Below, piece by piece: positions 1,414-14,029 of a stretch of DNA of 64,000 nt. A model generated the notes under the pieces. It was given only the letters and a program-made list of their open reading frames with translations. It ran no database searches and had not been told where the DNA came from. Within the stretch, counting starts at the first letter, position 1, and every line of letters starts with the position of its first letter. The stretch is from an uncultured Candidatus Saccharibacteria bacterium (GTDB lineage Bacteria; Patescibacteriota; Minisyncoccia; Phycocordibacterales; UBA2100): positions 4,073 to 68,072 of the forward strand of contig CAYGKV010000001.1 of assembly GCA_964350885.1 (NCBI GenBank), given 5' to 3'. Both the position numbers and the translations under genes were made by a program.

Positions 1414-2388
1414 ATGCTAGTAGATGAAATAACAATTGAGCTCCACGCAGGAGATGGTGGCAAGGGTGCCGTCGCTTTCCAGAAGGTCCGGCTTGCCCGC
1501 GGTCCTACGGGGGGAGATGGGGGCAATGGTGGCAGCATCTATTTTGAAGGCGTCTCCAATCCGAGCGCACTCTCGGTGTTTGCTCATAAAAAGATAATTC
1601 AGGCGGAAAATGGCAGAGACGGTCGCGGGCAGTTTCTCGACGGCAGAGGAGGCGCCGATCTTATACTGAAGATTCCTATTGGCACGCGCATACACAATGT
1701 CAGTACTGGATATGTGCAAGAGATGGACGAGGTGGGACAGCGCATCTTGGCGGCAGGAGCGGGGATCGGAGGACGGGGGAATTTCAAATTCCGTTCATCA
1801 ACCAACACGAGCCCGATGGAGGCTGAGCCCGGATTAAAGGGCGATACATGCGCCTATAGACTTGAGCTCCGCTTGATTGCTGATGTCGGATTTGTCGGTT
1901 TGCCAAATGCGGGGAAGTCGAGTCTTTTGAATGAATTGACTGCAGCAAAGAGTCGCGTCGCGGGATACGCATTCACGACACTCGAACCTCACCTCGGCGC
2001 GTACTACGAGATCATTCTTGCCGATATCCCAGGACTTATCGAAGGGGCTTCGGAAGGTAAAGGGCTCGGTGTCAAATTTCTCAAGCATATCGAGCGCACG
2101 AAAGTTCTATTTCATCTCATTTCCGCAGAATCCGACGATGTGGCGAAAGATTATGAAGTTATTCGAAACGAGCTGGAGAGCTACAATCCGATGCTTACCA
2201 AGAAAATTGAATATGTGTTTCTCACAAAAACCGACGCTGTCACACCGGAGGAAATAAAGAAGAAGTTACAAGCACTCAAGAAAAAGAAATTAAAACCAAT
2301 CCCCATCTCAATTCTCGATGAAAAGAGCCTCATGGAAGTAAAAAAGATACTCAATAAGATAAAATCCGCGAAACTGGGAAAAGCATAA
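1414..2388 (+). CDS. obg: GTPase Obg/CgtA
   Basis: Obg-fold glycine-rich N-terminus (GDGGKGAVAF, GGDGGNGGSIYF, GRDGRGQF); G domain motifs GLPNAGKSSL, DIPGLIEGA, TKTD. Confidence 0.92.
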   Translation: MLVDEITIELHAGDGGKGAVAFQKVRLARGPTGGDGGNGGSIYFEGVSNPSALSVFAHKKIIQAENGRDGRGQFLDGRGGADLILKIPIGTRIHNVSTGYVQEMDEVGQRILAAGAGIGGRGNFKFRSSTNTSPMEAEPGLKGDTCAYRLELRLIADVGFVGLPNAGKSSLLNELTAAKSRVAGYAFTTLEPHLGAYYEIILADIPGLIEGASEGKGLGVKFLKHIERTKVLFHLISAESDDVAKDYEVIRNELESYNPMLTKKIEYVFLTKTDAVTPEEIKKKLQALKKKKLKPIPISILDEKSLMEVKKILNKIKSAKLGKA

Positions 2389-2412: not shown

Positions 2413-2483
2413 GTTTACACGCTGCTGCCTGCGACGAAGCCGGTAGTCCAGCAGAGCTGTAGCGAGTAGCCGCCGGAGAGGGG
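2413..2483. repeat. direct repeat copy 1 (~70 bp, ~93% identical to 3047-3116), non-coding relic of flavoprotein 3' end
   Basis: gtttacacgctgctgcctgcgacgaagccggtagtccagcagagctgtagcgagtagccgccggagagggg aligned by eye to copy 2. Confidence 0.65.
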
Positions 2484-2497
2484 AAAATGAATGAGGC

Positions 2498-2752
2498 CTA
2501 CCGATATGCATCCTTGCGATTCTTAATGGCGTACACGAAGATTGTCGAGGTTTCGATGTCAAAAAGTATGCGATAGTTTCCGACCCGCTTGCGGTACCCG
2601 TGCAGGGGAAGCTGTAATTTCTTTATTTGCCGGAGTTCAGACGAGAAATCCACAAGCTCGCGCAATGCCTCGCCCACCCGAATCTTTTCCTTCGGAGGTA
2701 AAGCATCAAAATTCTTCACGGCACTTCCAAACAAAACCACCTTATACACCAT
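2498..2752 (-). CDS. type II toxin, RelE/ParE family
   Basis: 85 aa from MVYKVVLFGSAVKNFDALP…GYRKRVGNYRILFDIETSTIFVYAIKNRKDAYR, matching the RelE/ParE signature (RVGdYRiiy…v.ilri.hRkdvY); starts 5 nt after antitoxin stop. Confidence 0.75.
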   Translation of the reverse strand: MVYKVVLFGSAVKNFDALPPKEKIRVGEALRELVDFSSELRQIKKLQLPLHGYRKRVGNYRILFDIETSTIFVYAIKNRKDAYR

Positions 2753-2984
2753 AACGCTTGAGGATCTTTTCAAGCGGAGTACCGCGTTCGCCCGCATGCT
2801 TCTTTTTGAGTCGCATGAGTTCGAGCGAGTCTTCAAGGTCCTCAAGGTCGCGCTGGTTCATGATGGTGGCGACGGGTATTCCACTTTTTTCGAGAGTGAT
2901 GCGCTCCCCGTTCATTACACGTTCAATAACCGCGCCGAGGTTAATGCGCGCTTGCGTAATGGCCATAACAGTGGTGTCGGACAT
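2742..2984 (-). CDS. type II antitoxin, Phd/YefM family
   Basis: 80 aa; ITQARINLGAVIERVMNGERITLEKSGIPVATIMNQRDLEDLEDSLEL resembles the Phd/YefM N-terminal fold; located upstream of the toxin. Confidence 0.7.
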   Translation of the reverse strand: MSDTTVMAITQARINLGAVIERVMNGERITLEKSGIPVATIMNQRDLEDLEDSLELMRLKKKHAGERGTPLEKILKRYGV

Positions 2985-3046
2985 ATATTGATTGATGTTA
3001 AGTACTACTCATCAACTATACTCAATGCATGCCCGCTGTCAATAAC

Positions 3047-3116
3047 GTTTTACACGCTGCTGCCGGCGACGAAGCCGCTGCTCCAGCAGAGCTGTAGCGA
3101 GTAGCCGCCGGAGGGG
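3047..3116. repeat. direct repeat copy 2 (covers last ~21 codons and stop of flavoprotein gene)
   Basis: gttttacacgctgctgccggcgacgaagccgctgctccagcagagctgtagcgagtagccgccggagggg. Confidence 0.65.
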
Positions 3117-4282
3117 CGGTTGATGTGTAGCACATCGCCGATGAGATAGAGGTTAGAGATTTTGAGACTACGCATAGTGCGCGTATCTACTTCCGTGAGC
3201 GGCACGCCGCCGTCGGAGACGATGGCGCGATCGAAGCCCATCAATCCTTCAATCGTCGCTGGAGCTGACTTAAGAAGGTGAACGAAGCGTTTGCGATCTT
3301 CTTTGGTGAGGCTATGGGCTTTGAGCGAAGGGTTTGGCAAGTTCAGTAGTGAGGTATACGCGCGACTCATGCCGGCCGGTACAATTTCGTCGACAACATT
3401 TTTGAAATCCTTATTCTTACTCGCTTCAATGGCGGCGAGGACGCGCTTTTCGAGCACAGCAAAATCGGTGTCGGGAAATGCGTCGATGGCGCAAGTGACG
3501 GTACCGCCCGATAGAAGATCGTGTACCTGATGAGCGCAGTTCAATATGAGAGGGCCGGAGAGCCCAAAGTGAGTAAAAAGGAGCCGCCCTTTTCTTGCAA
3601 ACGCTCGTTTGCCGTCGACGAAGAAAACAATCTTCATATCAGGCAACGTAATGCCAGCGAGTTTTTTTACCCATGCATCATCTACGCGAAGCGGGACAAG
3701 GGTCGGAGTCGATGGGATTACAGTGTGACCAAGGGCGGGGAGCCAATTGAATCCGTCGCCCGTCGAGCCCGTCTCGGGATGCGATGCGCCGCCTGTTGCG
3801 AGTACAAACGACTCAGCAGTAAACATCCCCTTAGTGCTCACGACATCAGTAATACGGCCGTCTGTAGCATTGAGTTTTTCCACAGTCACGCCCGTCAATA
3901 CCTCGACGCCATGCTCGGCAAGATAGGTCTTGAGCGTTTTGGTAACGTCGGTCGCTTTCTGTGTAACAGGGAATGCGCGGTTTCGTGCTTCGATGACGAG
4001 AGGCAATCCGCGTGAAGCGAAAAAATCAAAGGTGCTCTGCACGCCAAATTGGGAGAAAGGGGAGTAGAGAAATTGTTCTGCGGCGCCGTAATTTTTCAAG
4101 AGCGCACGCACATCTAATTCCGCGTTTGTGATATTGCACCTGCCTCCGCCGGTCGTATCGAGCTTTTTCCCAAGCTTTGCGTTTTTTTCGATAAGTAAGA
4201 CCGATTTACCGCGCTCGGCTGCTATACCCGCAGCAAACATGCCCGCGGCCCCGCCGCCGATCACAATGACATCGTACTTCAT
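3050..4282 (-). CDS. NAD(P)/FAD-dependent oxidoreductase, HI0933/BaiN-like flavoprotein
   Basis: MKYDVIVIGGGAAGMFAAGIAAERGKSVLLIEKNAKLGKKL…GGGRCN Rossmann dinucleotide fold; chosen start is the internal Met (ORF track extends to 4456). Confidence 0.8.
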   Translation of the reverse strand: MKYDVIVIGGGAAGMFAAGIAAERGKSVLLIEKNAKLGKKLDTTGGGRCNITNAELDVRALLKNYGAAEQFLYSPFSQFGVQSTFDFFASRGLPLVIEARNRAFPVTQKATDVTKTLKTYLAEHGVEVLTGVTVEKLNATDGRITDVVSTKGMFTAESFVLATGGASHPETGSTGDGFNWLPALGHTVIPSTPTLVPLRVDDAWVKKLAGITLPDMKIVFFVDGKRAFARKGRLLFTHFGLSGPLILNCAHQVHDLLSGGTVTCAIDAFPDTDFAVLEKRVLAAIEASKNKDFKNVVDEIVPAGMSRAYTSLLNLPNPSLKAHSLTKEDRKRFVHLLKSAPATIEGLMGFDRAIVSDGGVPLTEVDTRTMRSLKISNLYLIGDVLHINRPSGGYSLQLCWSSGFVAGSSV

Positions 4283-5295: not shown

Positions 5296-5579
5296 AAAGA
5301 AATATCAAAAAGACGGCATTTTTCGCGGCGGGAGTGTTCTTCTTACCACTCGGGATTCTCGGTCTCGCACTTCCCTTTTTGCAAGGATTTTTATTTATTG
5401 CTATCGGACTCATTTTCCTTTCGATTTCCTCTCCTCGCGCACGCTCGTGGATCGAATCTCATACGACGCGGTACCCGAACGTACATGCAGTAATGGGGCG
5501 GATTGAGAAGTGGATCGTGGGCATTGTTGGTCCGCTCGACACAGAGAAGACAGAGGGAGAAAACAAAAGGAATTTCTAA
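5292..5579 (+). CDS. small membrane protein, PGPGW/YbaN-like
   Basis: 95 aa, two TM helices with LALPFLQGFLFIAIGL motif; ATGA overlap with dedA-like gene. Confidence 0.4.
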   Translation: MKRNIKKTAFFAAGVFFLPLGILGLALPFLQGFLFIAIGLIFLSISSPRARSWIESHTTRYPNVHAVMGRIEKWIVGIVGPLDTEKTEGENKRNF

Positions 5580-9588: not shown

Positions 9589-10878
9589 ATGAAGATACGC
9601 ACTGTCCATGCACGAGAAATTCTTGATTCGAGAGGGAATCCGACCATCGAGGCCGATGTGACTCTTGAGAATGGCGTGATTGGTAGGGCGGCAGTGCCCT
9701 CGGGCGCTTCGACGGGAGCGCACGAAGCACATGAACTTCGCGATGGTGATGCGAAGCGATACGGTGGAAAGGGGGTATTGAAAGCGGTAGGGTATGTGAA
9801 CGGAGAAATTGATCGTGCCGTTTCCGGTATGGATGTCGAAGATCAAAAGGGGATCGACAAAAAACTCATTGCACTCGACGGGACAAAAAATAAATCGCGA
9901 TTGGGCGCGAATGCGATTCTTGCGGTGTCGCTCGCGGGCGCGCGCGCCGCTGCAGCGGCGCGCGCCGTCCCTCTCTACGAATATGTCCGCACGTTGAGTT
10001 CTAAAAAAAAGGAACTCACACTCCCCCTCCCGCAATGTGATATTTTGAACGGAGGGGCACATACGGACTGGCAATCCACAGACTTGCAGGAATTTATGAT
10101 TATGCCGGTTGGTGCTCCTACTTTCCGCGAAGCGTTGCGCATGATGGCGGAAGTATTCCACGCGCTCAGGAAGATACTCAAATCAAAAGGATACGGCACT
10201 TCTGTGGGAGATGAAGGAGGTTTTGCTCCGGCTGTGCGCGGCGGCAACGAAGAGGCGCTTTCGCTCATTGCGGAAGCAGTCGCATCGTCTGGGTATGCAC
10301 TTGGTGAAGACATCGCGATAGCTCTCGATTGCGCTGCGTCCGAGCTTTATGAAGACGGGCACTACTGGTCGCACATGGAAAAAAAGAAATTTACAACGGA
10401 CGAAATGATCAATTGGTACAAAAAAATGTGCGTGCAGTATCCTATTGTCTCGATTGAAGATGGTCTTGCGGAGGATGATTGGAGTGGCTGGAAGAAGATG
10501 ACGACAGCGCTCGGCGATTCGACCCAGCTCGTGGGCGATGATCTTTTGGTCACTAATGTAGAGTTTCTCAAGCGCGCAATTAAAGAAAGATCGGCCAACG
10601 CTATCCTCATCAAGGTAAATCAAATCGGGACGCTTACTGAAACCATTGCTGCGGTCGATATGGCACATGAGGCCGGGTGGCGCTCTGTCATGTCGCATCG
10701 TTCAGGAGAAACGGAAGATACGACGATCGCGCATCTCGCGGTGGGGCTTGGCACGGCTCAGATAAAAACCGGATCGGTGAGTCGGAGTGATCGCACAGCA
10801 AAATATAATGAACTATTACGGATAGAAGAGCTTCTGGGGGACGCCGCGCTTTTTGCCGGGAACAACGTGTTCAAATAA
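9589..10878 (+). CDS. eno: enolase (phosphopyruvate hydratase)
   Basis: [24 protein letters not shown]…; conserved enolase signature throughout, 429 aa. Confidence 0.95.
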
Positions 10879-11560: not shown

Positions 11561-14029
11561 ATGAAAGGAATCAAGGTCCTCAAATTTGGAGGGACTTCAA
11601 TGGGCTCTGCGGAAGCGATTCTTCGAGTAATAGGAATTGTGAAGAAGCCGCAACACGATGCACGAATCGCGGCGGTCGTAGTCTCCGCGATGAGCGGAGT
11701 TACCGATCACCTCATTGATATTGCCTCACGCGCAGCGGCGAAAGATGCGTCGTATAAGAAGATCATTCGCGATATCGAGAAGCGACACATCGCTACTGTG
11801 AACGCACTCATCTCTGAACCCAATCGCGCCGCTGCTATTGAAAGCGTGAGAGAGCTCATTGATTCGCTGGAAGGTCTTGCTCGCGGAGTGTATCTTGTCG
11901 GAGAGCTTTCTCTTGGGGCATTGGATTACATCATGAGCTACGGCGAGCGACTCTCCGCGCATCTCCTCACGGATGCCTTGTGTGATAGGGGTGTTCGTGC
12001 TGAATATCTGAATGCACGCAATATTATCACGACGGATGGGACGTTTGGCGAGGCGGTAGTCAATTTCCCCATGACCAATAAGGCAGCGCGAGCATATTTC
12101 AAGAAGCATCCGAAGCTCCAGATCATGACCGGCTTTATTGCCTCAACGCAAAACAGAGCGACGACGACTCTGGGGCGCGGGGGGAGCGATTACTCGGCTT
12201 CGATATTGGGCGCGGCACTGAAGGCGCGTTCGATCGAGATATGGACAGATGTCTCCGGCGTTATGACGGCCGACCCGCGGAAGGTCAAGGATGCGCTACC
12301 GATTCGCTCTCTCAGCTATCTCGAGGCTGCCGAAATGTCGTACTTTGGCGCAAAGGTGATTCATCCTCCTACCATGCGTCCTGCGATGCAGAGCACTATT
12401 CCGATTCACATAAAAAACACGTTCAAACCTGACGCGTCCGGGACGATCGTGAGCAAAAAGACAGAAGATCTGGGGACGCACATCAAGGGTATTACCTCGG
12501 TCAATAATATTGCCATCCTTCAGGTAGAGGGCGGCGGATTGGCAAGTGTACGCGGTGCATCCGGCAGACTGTTCGGCTCCCTCGCTCGTGCAAAGGTCAA
12601 TGTCATTTTAATTACACAGGCATCATCCCAACACTCGATATCGTTTGTTGTCGCAAGTAATGAAGCGGAGCGTGCGCGTGAGGCTATAGAAGAAGAATTC
12701 GTACTTGAACGCCAGTCTCGTCTCGTTGATCCTGTGATCATCACACGCGAACTCTCGATTCTTGCCATCGTGGGCGAGGGGATGAAAAATCGGCGAGGAA
12801 TTGCCGGGAGATTCTTCCAGACGCTCGGTCAGAACGGAATCAATATTATTGCGATTGCCCAAGGATCATCGGAGCTCAACATCTCGGTCGTAATACAAAA
12901 GGAGGACGAGATGAAAGCGCTCAATGCTGTGCACGCAGCTTTTTTCTCTCCCGAGCAGTCGATCGTCAATGTCTTTATGGTGGGTACCGGTGTCGTTGGT
13001 TCTGCCCTCCTCAAGCAAATCGCCCAACAGAAGGAGCTCCTCGAACGAGATCATGGATACGTCGTCCGTTTGATCGGGCTTGCTGACGAGCATCGCATGG
13101 TATTTGACGATAATGGCGGCATACCAGCTTTCGAATGGCAATCGTATCTCAAAGCATCGAAAACAAAAATGAATATTCGTACATTCATTGAGACCATGAA
13201 AGCAAAAGAGCTCCAAAATAGTGTTTTCGTTGACTGTACGGCAAGCGAACAAATCGCTACGCATTACATCAGCGTGCTTCGCGCGGGCATATCCATCGCT
13301 ACTCCAAATAAGTACGCGAACTCTGGTTCGTACAAGCGGTACCTTGCTCTCAAGACCGCGGCGGCCAAGTACGGCGTAAAATTCCTATATGAGACCAACG
13401 TGGGCGCGGGTCTTCCCGTCTTGGGGACTCTAAAAGACCTCATTCTATCGGGAGATCGTGTGACAAAGATCGAAGCGGTGCTTTCGGGGACACTGAGCTA
13501 CGTGTTTGATAATTTCAAGGGGGCGAGGTCTTTTAGTGAAATTGTGATGGAAGCACGAAAACTTGGATTTACAGAGCCAGATCCGCGTAACGATTTGAGT
13601 GGGCTTGATGTCGCGCGCAAGATTCTCATCCTTGCCCGCGATATGGGAATACCTCTTAAGCTCAAAGATGTGAAGGTTGAGAGTCTTCTCTCGAGAAAAT
13701 GCCGCCAGTCGCCCTCGGTAGAAAAATTCTTCGAGCAACTCAAGAAAGAAGATCCTACCTATGAGACGAAGAAACGCGCAGCTGAAAAAAGTGGCAAAGT
13801 ACTTCGGTATGTCGCGACGCTGAATAAGGGAAAGGCGAGTGTATCGCTCCAGGCAGTGGATGCACTCCATCCTTTTTATGTTCTCTATGGCAATGACAAC
13901 ATCATCGCGTTCTTTACAGAACGGTACCAAAAATCACCACTCGTGATCCAGGGGCCAGGCGCGGGCGCGGAAGTCACAGCAGCGGGAGTGTTTGCAGACA
14001 TATTACGCACGGCTGTTGTTACAATGTAG
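11561..14029 (+). CDS. thrA: bifunctional aspartokinase / homoserine dehydrogenase
   Basis: N-terminal KVLKFGGTSMGSAE kinase motif, ACT region, C-terminal NAD-binding VFMVGTGVVGSALL and HSD catalytic domain; 822 aa. Confidence 0.85.
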   Translation: MKGIKVLKFGGTSMGSAEAILRVIGIVKKPQHDARIAAVVVSAMSGVTDHLIDIASRAAAKDASYKKIIRDIEKRHIATVNALISEPNRAAAIESVRELIDSLEGLARGVYLVGELSLGALDYIMSYGERLSAHLLTDALCDRGVRAEYLNARNIITTDGTFGEAVVNFPMTNKAARAYFKKHPKLQIMTGFIASTQNRATTTLGRGGSDYSASILGAALKARSIEIWTDVSGVMTADPRKVKDALPIRSLSYLEAAEMSYFGAKVIHPPTMRPAMQSTIPIHIKNTFKPDASGTIVSKKTEDLGTHIKGITSVNNIAILQVEGGGLASVRGASGRLFGSLARAKVNVILITQASSQHSISFVVASNEAERAREAIEEEFVLERQSRLVDPVIITRELSILAIVGEGMKNRRGIAGRFFQTLGQNGINIIAIAQGSSELNISVVIQKEDEMKALNAVHAAFFSPEQSIVNVFMVGTGVVGSALLKQIAQQKELLERDHGYVVRLIGLADEHRMVFDDNGGIPAFEWQSYLKASKTKMNIRTFIETMKAKELQNSVFVDCTASEQIATHYISVLRAGISIATPNKYANSGSYKRYLALKTAAAKYGVKFLYETNVGAGLPVLGTLKDLILSGDRVTKIEAVLSGTLSYVFDNFKGARSFSEIVMEARKLGFTEPDPRNDLSGLDVARKILILARDMGIPLKLKDVKVESLLSRKCRQSPSVEKFFEQLKKEDPTYETKKRAAEKSGKVLRYVATLNKGKASVSLQAVDALHPFYVLYGNDNIIAFFTERYQKSPLVIQGPGAGAEVTAAGVFADILRTAVVTM

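What the first reader, a model, noticed from the sequence alone, without database searches (positions are those of the whole stretch)
2413..3116. Toxin-antitoxin (TA) cassette bracketed by ~70 bp imperfect direct repeats, one of which is the 3' end of the neighbouring flavoprotein gene
Segment 2413-2483 and segment 3047-3116 align over ~70 bp with about 5 substitutions and 1 indel. The right copy encodes the last ~21 codons (…YSLQLCWSSGFVAGSSV*) of the HI0933-like flavoprotein; the left copy is out of frame and non-coding. Between them sit only the Phd/YefM-RelE/ParE genes. This is the footprint expected if a small TA cassette inserted at the 3' end of the flavoprotein gene with duplication of the target, or was captured by recombination between short repeats. 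It marks the obg-flavoprotein intergenic region as a recombination hot spot.
Basis: seen in the sequence. Interest (0 to 1): 0.6.

Follow-up and report, generated by a model that had tools for sequence, protein, structure and literature searches.

The report
Toxin-antitoxin cassette flanked by duplicated gene end
A tiny self-contained toxin-antitoxin gene pair sits just after a flavoprotein gene in an ultrasmall (Patescibacteria) bacterium, with a spare copy of the gene's last 68 bases on its far side; this is a real insertion scar of a known general type, and the same kind of scar recurs around this cassette family at other conserved genes.

Summary
The repeat is real. Window 2414-2481 and 3049-3116 match at 63 of 68 bases with no indel, and it is the only direct repeat of 30 nt or more in the 64 kb. 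The right copy is the functional end of an HI0933-like flavoprotein gene. The left copy is a displaced end that still reads LSGGYSLQLCWTTGFVAGSSV-stop. Between them lies only a Phd/YefM–RelE/ParE operon with its own promoter, TTGACA-16-TATAGT, and a palindromic operator.

Relatives show the empty site: flavoprotein and obg stops 9 or 75 nt apart, with one copy of the end. Two related lineages share the cassette at this site.

The same cassette, running from its -35 box to the toxin stop codon, occurs in about ten other genomic contexts. Several are also bracketed by duplicated host sequence, including four copies of an EF-G gene end around three cargo units.

In those other loci the copies differ almost only at synonymous positions. 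They therefore look like gene ends from different lineages, not decaying target duplications.

My best reading is recombinase-independent integration at conserved gene ends. This resembles "insertion with long target duplication" of restriction-modification genes and gene-end replacement by integrative elements. The mechanism is inferred, not shown. Interest is moderate.

The parts
1414..2388 (+). obg (GTPase Obg, 324 aa), convergent with the flavoprotein gene. It is the ancestral downstream neighbour of the flavoprotein stop codon.
   Evidence: PF01018 E=4.9e-40 and PF01926. In L005 and L010 the obg stop lies 9 or 75 nt from the flavoprotein stop.
2414..2481 (-). Left repeat copy: the displaced remnant of the flavoprotein gene's 3' end. 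Its peptide frame is intact (LSGGYSLQLCWTTGFVAGSSV) and it has its own stop at 2415-2417. It lies 25 nt from the obg stop.
   Evidence: It keeps the 'TT' residues seen in all close relatives, whereas the functional copy has 'SS'.
2482..2497 (-). Junction between the toxin stop codon and the remnant. It is probably a strongly diverged continuation of the remnant, which in L004 starts about 10 nt further upstream in the gene, at codon I387.
   Evidence: Alignment A1, four-way alignment and junction comparison with L004 and L179. The homology here is weak, at about 10 of 16 bases.
2498..2752 (-). RelE/ParE-superfamily toxin gene (84 aa). Its start overlaps the end of the antitoxin gene by 11 nt.
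   Evidence: PF05016 E=3.5e-5, 24.7 bits against a cut-off of 23. Weak PDB matches to RelE3 (3bpq), Rv2866 and aRelE. Nine homologues at 68-100% identity.
2742..2984 (-). Phd/YefM antitoxin gene (80 aa).
   Evidence: PF02604 E=3.3e-8. TIGR01552. Thirty-six homologues, all small Phd-family proteins.
2985..3049 (-). The cassette's own promoter and operator. The -35 box TTGACA is at 3042-3037 and the -10 box TATAGT at 3020-3015. An inverted repeat, TTGATG...CATCAA, spans 3015-2992. The cassette sequence starts 7 nt after the flavoprotein stop codon.
   Evidence: The promoter scan gives 11 of 12 matches. The same layout, TTGACA-N16/17-TAT(A/G)AT followed by TTGAT/ATCAA palindromes, precedes the antitoxin gene in all other contexts.
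3049..3116 (-). Right repeat copy: the functional last 22 codons plus stop of the flavoprotein gene.
3050..4282 (-). HI0933-like / aminoacetone-oxidase-family FAD flavoprotein gene (410 aa), intact.
   Evidence: PF03486, PF22780 and TIGR00275. Orthologues at 57-80% identity in Patescibacteria.

Best explanation
This is the scar of an integration event. A minimal, self-expressed type II toxin-antitoxin cassette (promoter, operator, Phd/YefM antitoxin, RelE/ParE toxin; about 565 bp) was placed directly after the stop codon of the flavoprotein gene in an ancestor of this organism and at least two related lineages.

What is shown:
- The repeat exists and is unique in the window.
- Relatives have the empty site.
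- The cassette is found in many other contexts.
- Similar scars surround this and other small cargo elsewhere.

What is inferred (the mechanism):
- The event used the highly conserved last 70-80 nt of the gene as the recombination substrate. One copy of that segment keeps the flavoprotein intact. The other copy, probably the former resident end, which still has the clade-typical 'TT' residues, was pushed to the far side of the cargo, next to obg.
- No recombinase is carried by the cassette, the host sequences duplicated at other loci differ, and the cassette orientation varies. I therefore think host homologous or one-ended recombination is most likely, probably on DNA taken up by natural transformation. 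Transformation is documented in Patescibacteria.
- Such a process would resemble Campbell-type or 'ends-in' integration, or homology-facilitated illegitimate recombination. It would not need a dedicated integrase or transposase.

Consequences, also inferred:
- The two copies share a 32-nt perfect run, so RecA could excise the cassette precisely and restore an intact gene.
- The addictive property of the toxin-antitoxin pair would select against such loss. That would explain why toxin-antitoxin pairs are the cargo most often seen inside such repeats.
For: The repeat and its anatomy:
- 63 of 68 bases identical and unique in the window.
- A strong promoter lies immediately after the flavoprotein stop codon.
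- The cassette's G+C content (0.50) equals that of the genome (0.51).

Empty sites and sharing among relatives:
- L005 and L010 have the empty site.
- L004 (flavoprotein 80% aa identity) and L179 (Obg 84-86% aa identity) have the same layout and junctions. Toxin-antitoxin nucleotide identity among the three is 75-81%.

Mobility:
- The cassette, bounded by its -35 box and the toxin stop codon, occurs in about ten other contexts.

Sister scars:
- L175: the last ~119 nt of an EF-G gene occur four times, separating BrnT/BrnA, Phd/ParE and a PG_binding_1 gene.
- L178: the cassette lies in the opposite orientation between an EF-G end and its remnant.
- L171: a 51-nt copy of the EF-G end.
- L166: an MNT/HepT pair between a gene end and its remnant.
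- L164: a 28-nt repeat that includes a -35 box.

Codon-position test on six functional/remnant pairs:
- Differences fall [22, 15, 72] at codon positions 1, 2 and 3. This gives p=3e-12 against a uniform spread and p=9e-5 against the 1:1:1.7 ratio expected for a duplication followed by neutral decay of one copy.
- In L178, 13 of 13 differences are synonymous.

Absence of a dedicated recombinase or phage source:
- There is no room for a recombinase in the insert, and a crude motif screen found no integrase-like motif among window ORFs.
- No phage contigs encode the antitoxin or carry these gene ends.

Literature:
- RM genes inserted with direct repeats longer than 30 bp, often spanning start or stop sites and mostly in naturally competent species (PMC2853133).
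- Natural competence in Patescibacteria (PMC10633639 and PMC10187176, abstract shown).
Against: - The window's own pair has only 5-6 differences, and their codon positions ([0, 4, 2]) are not synonymous-biased. The 'replacement end' signature therefore comes from sister loci, not from this locus.
- If the insertion is ancestral to the window, L004 and L179, a neutral remnant should have decayed. Four-fold sites of the flavoprotein gene are only 74/186 identical between the window and L004. Yet the two remnants are 61/69 identical. The simple model does not explain this. It needs gene conversion, repeated turnover or selection as an addition.
- No excision product, circular form or within-population empty allele was observed.
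- Only a crude motif screen excludes a recombinase acting in trans, and only for these 64 kb.
- My first argument that the module is younger than the host genes failed its control. High synonymous identity in the last 35 codons is also seen between relatives that lack the cassette.
Confidence: 0.6

Rival explanations
1. In situ 'long target duplication'. The cassette was pasted into a single target after staggered breaks about 70-80 nt apart, or after replication template switching. Both repeat copies would then derive from the resident gene end, and the detached one is slowly decaying.
For: The window pair is 93% identical, and its differences are not synonymous-biased. The layout meets the formal criteria used for RM genes in PMC2853133: an insert under 20 kb without mobility genes, a repeat longer than 30 bp, and an empty site in a relative.
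Against: In L004, L175, L178 and L171 the copies differ mainly or only at synonymous sites. A duplicate that lost its coding function would not do this. The functional copy in the window carries 'SS', whereas the remnant and all close relatives carry 'TT'.
Confidence: 0.15
2. Site-specific integration. The repeat would be an attL/attR pair made by an integrase that targets the 3' end of the flavoprotein gene, as with e14 at icd or ICEs at fda/rplL. The present 0.6 kb would be a decayed or cis-mobilisable remnant, or a cassette serviced by an integrase encoded elsewhere.
For: Restoring the gene with a foreign-looking end, leaving a displaced end, and stacking units tandemly at one site (L175) are the classic signature of such elements. 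That comparison rests on my own knowledge of e14/icd and ICE/CIME accretion. In the window, L004 and L179 the remnant starts at about the same codon.
Against: - There is no integrase in or next to any of about twelve cassette loci (gene tables).
- A crude screen found no integrase-like motif in the 64 kb.
- The duplicated host sequences differ: a flavoprotein end, an EF-G end, the end of a PKD-domain protein gene, and a promoter.
- Repeat lengths vary from 28 to about 200 nt, and the cassette orientation relative to the repeat flips.
- There are no phage-borne copies.
Confidence: 0.15
3. The detached copy is kept because it is useful, for example as a 3' end or terminator element for obg or for the toxin-antitoxin operon, or as a translated peptide. 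On this reading it is not merely a scar.
For: The remnants of the window and L004 are 61/69 identical. Neutral sites are about 40-56% identical, and conservation stops sharply at the edges of the homology.
Against: - No stable or unusual RNA fold on either strand (z-scores -0.5 to +1.0) and no terminator-like site.
- No Rfam match.
- The remnant's frame relative to the toxin differs between the window and L004 (+2 against +1), which argues against a conserved read-through or frameshift product (coordinates).
- L179 has lost most of the remnant.
- In L004 a 127-aa gene separates the remnant from obg.
Confidence: 0.08
4. Chance similarity or an assembly artefact.
For: None found.
Against: E-value about 2e-23. 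The structure is identical in three independent assemblies, and a homologous structure occurs in L004.
Confidence: 0.01

Closest known systems
'Insertion with long target duplication' of restriction-modification gene units (Nobusato et al. 2000, Gene 259:99; Furuta, Abe & Kobayashi 2010, NAR, PMC2853133)
   Same: A small addiction-type gene unit with no mobility gene, flanked by direct repeats longer than 30 bp that align to a single copy at the empty site of a relative. The repeats often span a stop or start site, so no gene is broken. The cases are mostly in naturally competent bacteria.
   Different: The cargo here is a type II toxin-antitoxin pair and the host is a Patescibacterium. In sister loci the repeats are 75-85% identical with almost purely synonymous differences, so they are not simple duplicates of one target. 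I found no paper describing this for toxin-antitoxin pairs or for Patescibacteria.
Integrative elements that replace the 3' end of a protein gene (prophage e14 at icd; ICE/IME/CIME at fda, rplL, rpsI in streptococci). This comparison is from my own knowledge and was not looked up here.
   Same: The target gene stays intact because the incoming DNA supplies a synonymous-variant 3' end. The resident end is left as a pseudo-fragment at the other border. Tandem accretion gives arrays of units separated by att-like repeats, as in L175.
   Different: Those elements encode, or depend on, a specific integrase with one fixed att core. Here no integrase is present, the duplicated host sequences and repeat lengths vary, and the cassette orientation flips.
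Homology-facilitated illegitimate recombination and transformation-generated merodiploidy (papers listed, e.g. PMC3240628 and PMC3784515; only abstracts seen)
   Same: Foreign DNA is integrated using one homologous anchor and no dedicated recombinase, in naturally transformable bacteria. It can create duplications.
   Different: This process has not been shown to produce short gene-end duplications around small cassettes. Its role here is inferred only.
Integron gene cassettes (toxin-antitoxin cassettes in Vibrio superintegrons). This comparison is from my own knowledge.
   Same: Small promoter-proximal cargo units, often toxin-antitoxin pairs, stacked in arrays at one landing site.
   Different: There are no attC-type imperfect inverted repeats at the cassette ends and no IntI gene. 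The separators here are copies of a host gene's coding end.
Phd/YefM–RelE/ParE type II toxin-antitoxin systems
   Same: An antitoxin-first, overlapping two-gene operon with Pfam hits above their cut-offs for both genes and a palindromic operator over the promoter.
   Different: The toxin is a divergent member. It has no NCBIfam hit, and its PDB matches are only E=0.01-0.07. Its activity is untested.

Membership tests
Type II toxin-antitoxin system, Phd/YefM–RelE/ParE | Two small adjacent co-oriented genes, antitoxin first, usually overlapping | tested here: met
   Antitoxin at 2742-2984 and toxin at 2498-2752, with an 11-nt overlap.
Type II toxin-antitoxin system, Phd/YefM–RelE/ParE | Family-level sequence match for both proteins | tested here: met
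   PF02604 at 33.6 bits (cut-off 29.8), PF05016 at 24.7 bits (cut-off 23) and TIGR01552 at 26.5 bits (cut-off 20.8). The toxin match is marginal.
Type II toxin-antitoxin system, Phd/YefM–RelE/ParE | Own promoter with a palindromic operator for autoregulation | tested here: met
   TTGACA-16-TATAGT plus TTGATG...CATCAA, conserved in all contexts. Binding itself was not tested.
Type II toxin-antitoxin system, Phd/YefM–RelE/ParE | Toxin arrests growth and antitoxin neutralises it | not testable with these tools
   Needs expression experiments.
Insertion with long target duplication (criteria of PMC2853133) | Insert under 20 kb with no transposase, integrase or other mobility gene | tested here: met
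   The 567 nt between the repeats hold only the toxin-antitoxin operon.
Insertion with long target duplication (criteria of PMC2853133) | Flanking direct repeat longer than 30 bp and unique in the genome | tested here: met
   68 nt, with no other copy in the 64 kb. The rest of the genome was not available.
Insertion with long target duplication (criteria of PMC2853133) | A related genome has an empty site in which the repeat aligns once | tested here: met
   L005 and L010 (also L006 and L009) have a single flavoprotein end adjacent to obg.
Insertion with long target duplication (criteria of PMC2853133) | Both repeat copies derive from the one resident target (implied by the name) | tested here: inconclusive
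   The window pair has too few differences to tell. In the sister loci L004, L175, L178 and L171 this is not met, because the differences are synonymous-biased.
Integrase-mediated integrative element (att-flanked island, prophage or CIME) | Tyrosine or serine recombinase in the element or adjacent to it | tested here: not met
   None in the insert. None in the gene tables of twelve cassette loci. The motif screen of window ORFs was negative but crude.
Integrase-mediated integrative element (att-flanked island, prophage or CIME) | One fixed att core shared by independent insertions | tested here: not met
   Different host sequences are duplicated, with lengths from 28 to about 200 nt and both cassette orientations.
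Integrase-mediated integrative element (att-flanked island, prophage or CIME) | Target gene restored by an element-borne 3' end, with the resident end displaced | tested here: met
   The flavoprotein gene is intact, and the displaced end has its own stop. Sister loci show synonymous-variant ends.
Integron cassette | attC imperfect inverted repeat at the cassette end, with IntI and attI nearby | tested here: not met
   No inverted repeat at the cassette borders and no integrase motif.
IS, transposon or MITE | Terminal inverted repeats and a short (2-15 bp) target-site duplication | tested here: not met
   No terminal inverted repeats, and the direct repeat is 68 nt.

The most novel reading that the evidence does not exclude
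Patescibacteria, which largely lack classical mobile elements, may acquire and stack small selfish or defence cassettes without any recombinase. The conserved 3' ends of housekeeping genes (the flavoprotein gene here, fusA/EF-G elsewhere) would serve as portable homology arms. Each cassette would travel with a copy of the gene end, integrate by host recombination after DNA uptake, displace the resident end, and could be excised precisely. This would amount to an integron-like accretion system built only from homology. The unexpectedly high conservation of the displaced end would then reflect continuing recombination or turnover at the site.
Probability: 0.3. Interest if true: 0.7.

Novelty: new variant of a known kind. 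Interest (0 to 1): 0.45.

Why it matters
How ultrasmall, mobile-element-poor bacteria gain accessory genes is poorly understood. This locus, together with the sister loci found here, shows compact toxin-antitoxin cassettes landing exactly at the ends of conserved genes without breaking them. They are bounded by copies of the gene end that look as if they came from other lineages.

If the mechanism is homology-driven capture after natural transformation, three things would follow:
- It would extend the "long target duplication" route, described for restriction-modification genes, to toxin-antitoxin modules.
- It would give a simple rule for finding recently acquired cargo in metagenome-assembled genomes: search for C-terminal peptide echoes downstream of genes.
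- It would suggest a design for inserting genes into Patescibacteria.

For annotation, it warns that the 2414-2481 segment is a gene fragment and not a regulatory repeat.

Tried and rejected
- RNA element or terminator in the remnant: folding of both strands in the window and L004 gave z-scores near zero. The pattern scan found no terminator-like site, and Rfam gave nothing.
- Phage or plasmid source: the antitoxin has no relative in viral contigs, and degenerate patterns for the flavoprotein and EF-G ends gave zero hits.
- "Module younger than host genes": synonymous identity is higher in the last 35 flavoprotein codons between the window and L004 (22/30 against 128/290, p=0.003). I retracted this argument because the same elevation appears between relatives without the cassette, which points to codon bias.
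- A conserved cassette-end motif (CTATCCACA.CACCCC) that might give microhomology with the flavoprotein sequence: it is present in only a few contexts, probably orthologous ones, so I dropped it.
- Read-through or frameshift fusion of the toxin to the remnant peptide: the relative frame differs between the window and L004.
- Gene conversion as the sole explanation for remnant conservation: it fits the window but not L004, where the remnant is closer to the window copies than to its own partner.
- A structured RNA in the ~550 nt after the toxin in L164: no Rfam hit.
- Closer relatives in JGI metagenomes: none above 71% identity.
- The 127-aa membrane ORF of L004: no counterpart in any other locus.
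Full report
**1. The observation**

The window holds a direct repeat at 2414-2481 and 3049-3116. It is 68 nt long, 63 bases are identical, and there is no gap. The mismatches are at 2430, 2443, 2445, 2446 and 2479, and the longest perfect run is 32 nt. BLAST of either copy against the whole window finds only its partner (E about 2e-23). A whole-window search finds no other direct repeat of 30 nt or more. The repeat is therefore neither a chance match nor a dispersed REP-like element, at least within these 64 kb.

The same arrangement is present on contigs from three other samples, and one of them covers the whole locus (L001-L003). That rules out an assembly artefact.

**2. Anatomy**

The locus reads as follows on the minus strand:
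- An intact 410-aa HI0933-like / aminoacetone-oxidase-family flavoprotein gene (3050-4282). Its last 22 codons plus stop form the right repeat copy.
- Seven bases after the stop, a near-consensus promoter: TTGACA at 3042-3037, a 16-nt spacer, and TATAGT at 3020-3015.
- An inverted repeat, TTGATG...CATCAA.
- A Phd/YefM antitoxin gene (2742-2984).
- An overlapping RelE/ParE-superfamily toxin gene (2498-2752).
- About 16 nt after the toxin stop, the left repeat copy.

In its own frame the left copy still reads LSGGYSLQLCWTTGFVAGSSV followed by a stop. It is a detached but unscrambled gene end.

Twenty-five bases further on is the stop codon of the convergent obg gene (1414-2388). The cassette's G+C content (0.50) matches that of the window (0.51).

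**3. Relatives**

The organism belongs to the Patescibacteria (Paceibacteria-type MAGs).

In relatives whose flavoprotein is 63-70% identical, the flavoprotein and obg genes are also convergent neighbours. In L005 the two stops are 9 nt apart and in L010 they are 75 nt apart. Both have one copy of the gene end and no toxin-antitoxin genes.

Other relatives have 157 to 3291 nt of unrelated cargo in the same gap, with no duplicated end. The gap is therefore variable.

L004, the closest genome (flavoprotein 80% aa identity, Obg 86%), has the same layout and the same junctions: stop codon, then ATTGACA...; toxin stop, a 4-nt linker, then a remnant that starts at codon I387. L179, a third lineage (Obg 84-86% identical to both), has the cassette next to obg but has lost most of the remnant. 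Toxin-antitoxin nucleotide identity among the three is 75-81%. A single insertion in their common ancestor is the simplest reading.

**4. The cassette is mobile**

Homologues of the antitoxin (36 proteins) and the toxin (9 proteins) are all from similar small operons. I looked up twelve proteins in total (the flavoprotein and eleven of these homologues).

The same unit always starts at its -35 box and ends at the toxin stop codon. It lies in about ten different neighbourhoods, with no integrase or transposase nearby. The neighbourhoods include:
- upstream of carA;
- next to PG_binding_1 genes;
- immediately before recJ;
- after a HicAB pair;
- repeatedly beside the 3' end of an EF-G gene.

**5. 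Sister scars**

A scan for peptide echoes of gene C-termini downstream of genes, run over the window and the 176 loci fetched up to that point, and direct inspection found the following.

| Locus | What is duplicated | Cargo |
|---|---|---|
| L175 | The last ~119 nt of EF-G, present four times | A BrnT/BrnA pair, the Phd/ParE cassette and a PG_binding_1 gene, one between each pair of copies |
| L178 | An EF-G end and an 84-nt remnant | The Phd/ParE cassette, in the opposite orientation |
| L171-L174 | A 51-nt copy of the EF-G end | It lies between EF-G and the cassette |
| L166 | A gene end and its remnant | An MNT/HepT pair |
| L164 | A 28-nt repeat that includes a -35 box | The cassette plus about 550 nt |
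| L041 (Cohnella), L058 (Melghirimyces) | A flavoprotein end (L041); the ends of a convergent gene pair (L058) | Other small cargo |

**6. What the repeats are**

If the repeats were made by copying one target, the detached copy should decay at all codon positions. Instead, across six functional/remnant pairs the differences fall [22, 15, 72] at codon positions 1, 2 and 3. This gives p=3e-12 against a uniform spread. It gives p=9e-5 against the 1:1:1.7 ratio expected when one copy stays coding and the other decays.

Individual pairs show the same thing:
- In L178, all 13 differences in 84 nt are synonymous.
- In L171, 13 differences leave the 16-residue peptide unchanged and include a TCC/AGT serine switch.
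- In L175, 18 of 22 differing codons are synonymous.
- In L004, 8 of 10 differing codons are synonymous.

Both copies therefore evolved as coding sequence, presumably in different genomes. This is the signature of an incoming replacement end plus a displaced resident end.

L175 fits this reading. The remnant next to the newest cargo resembles the EF-G end of the related L171 more than the currently functional end does (22 against 30 differences).

In the window itself the pair has only 5-6 differences, which are not synonymous-biased. The detached copy keeps the 'TT' residues of all close relatives, while the functional copy has 'SS'. That is compatible with the same model but does not prove it.

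**7. Mechanism**

What is shown: an insertion scar, an empty site in relatives, a mobile cassette, and recurrent gene-end duplications.

What is inferred: integration by host recombination at conserved gene ends, probably after DNA uptake. My reasons are:
- The cassette carries no recombinase.
- Different host sequences are duplicated, repeat lengths range from 28 to about 200 nt, and the cassette orientation is not fixed. All of this fits a site-specific integrase poorly.
- The duplicated segments are the most conserved parts of their genes.
- Natural competence is documented in Patescibacteria (PMC10633639 and PMC10187176, abstract shown).

The nearest described phenomenon is "insertion with long target duplication" of restriction-modification genes. 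There the repeats often span start or stop sites, and most cases are in competent species (PMC2853133). I found no description of this for toxin-antitoxin cassettes or for Patescibacteria.

The 32-nt perfect run would allow precise RecA-mediated excision. Toxin-antitoxin addiction would oppose such loss. Both points are inference.

**8. What remains unexplained**

If the insertion predates the split between the window lineage and L004, the remnant should be a neutral relic. Four-fold degenerate sites are 74/186 identical in the flavoprotein gene and 36/64 identical in the toxin-antitoxin genes. Yet the two remnants are 61/69 identical (p=7e-13 and p=3e-5). The conservation ends abruptly at the borders of the homology.

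Gene conversion fits the window but not L004. A functional RNA or terminator is not supported. Repeated insertion and deletion turnover at the site, as the L175 array suggests, is possible but untested.

One of my own arguments, that the module is younger than the host genes, failed a control and is withdrawn.

**9. Verdict**

The object is a new variant of a known kind of insertion scar. Interest is moderate. It would rise if the recombinase-free, gene-end-targeted capture route were shown to be general in Patescibacteria.

Noticed in passing
L175:774-3597 (Logan SRR22388241 contig): An array at the 3' end of an EF-G gene. The functional end (774-892) is followed by three remnants (1524-1642, 2265-2383 and 3504-3597, the last with a 33-nt internal deletion). 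These separate a BrnT/BrnA pair, the Phd/ParE cassette and a PG_binding_1 gene. The remnants keep the peptide but differ at synonymous sites.
   Followed up: partly
L164:4421-4448 and 5532-5559 (CAYGMC010000024): A 28-nt direct repeat, TTTTCCACAGCAAGrAAAATTTGACATG, brackets the Phd/ParE cassette plus about 550 nt of G+C-rich sequence with no convincing ORF. The repeat ends in a -35 box, so both the cassette and the downstream carA gene keep a promoter. The 550 nt gave no Rfam hit.
   Followed up: partly
L178:1683-1799 and 2638-2766; L169:2220-2324; L176:2840-2902 and 3466-3552: The same cassette lies beside EF-G 3' ends in the opposite orientation. L178 has a remnant whose 13 differences from the functional end are all synonymous. 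L176 shows EF-G fragments on both sides of the cassette, next to rpsJ, which suggests a more complex rearrangement.
   Followed up: partly
L166:837-1905 (VMGC01000001): An MNT/HepT (NTP_transf_2/HepT-like) pair at 955-1573 lies between the end of a PKD-domain protein gene (...ANSLTALESALKAILQLLGR, stop at 899) and a 20-aa echo of it at 1843-1902. Several PG_binding_1 paralogues nearby share the same C-terminal motif.
   Followed up: partly
L041:7060-7257 and 10330-10524 (Cohnella cholangitidis NZ_CP041969): In a Firmicute, the orthologous flavoprotein gene has an echo of its last ~59 codons (~180 nt) 3.1 kb downstream. The intervening DNA carries two oppositely oriented secreted-protein genes and no recombinase.
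   Followed up: no
L058:11066-12141 (Melghirimyces algeriensis): Between two convergent genes, the ends of both genes are echoed (11752-11859 and 11155-11102) around a 137-aa membrane-protein ORF. This is an insertion with duplication of a junction that spans both stop codons.
   Followed up: no
L116/L118:6431-7116: Tandem ~120-nt repeats on the minus strand, read as an artificial repetitive ORF, surround a small (86 aa) GIY-YIG-like ORF on the plus strand. This is a different kind of repeat element from the finding.
   Followed up: no
window:553-650: A run of eight G at about 559-566 separates two ORFs (95-625 and 643-1218). Together they look like one secreted Gly/Ser-rich protein with a signal peptide near 260. 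This may be a frameshift, a phase-variable tract or a sequencing error.
   Followed up: no
window:4326-4514: A small ORF (62 aa) with a CxC...CxxC pattern lies between the flavoprotein and VTT-domain genes. It has no Pfam match.
   Followed up: no
L004:7905-8288: A 127-aa multi-pass membrane ORF lies between the remnant and obg in L004 only. It has no counterpart in any other fetched locus.
   Followed up: partly
L170:4481-4482: In this context the toxin stop codon directly abuts the start of recJ, with no intergenic space.
   Followed up: no
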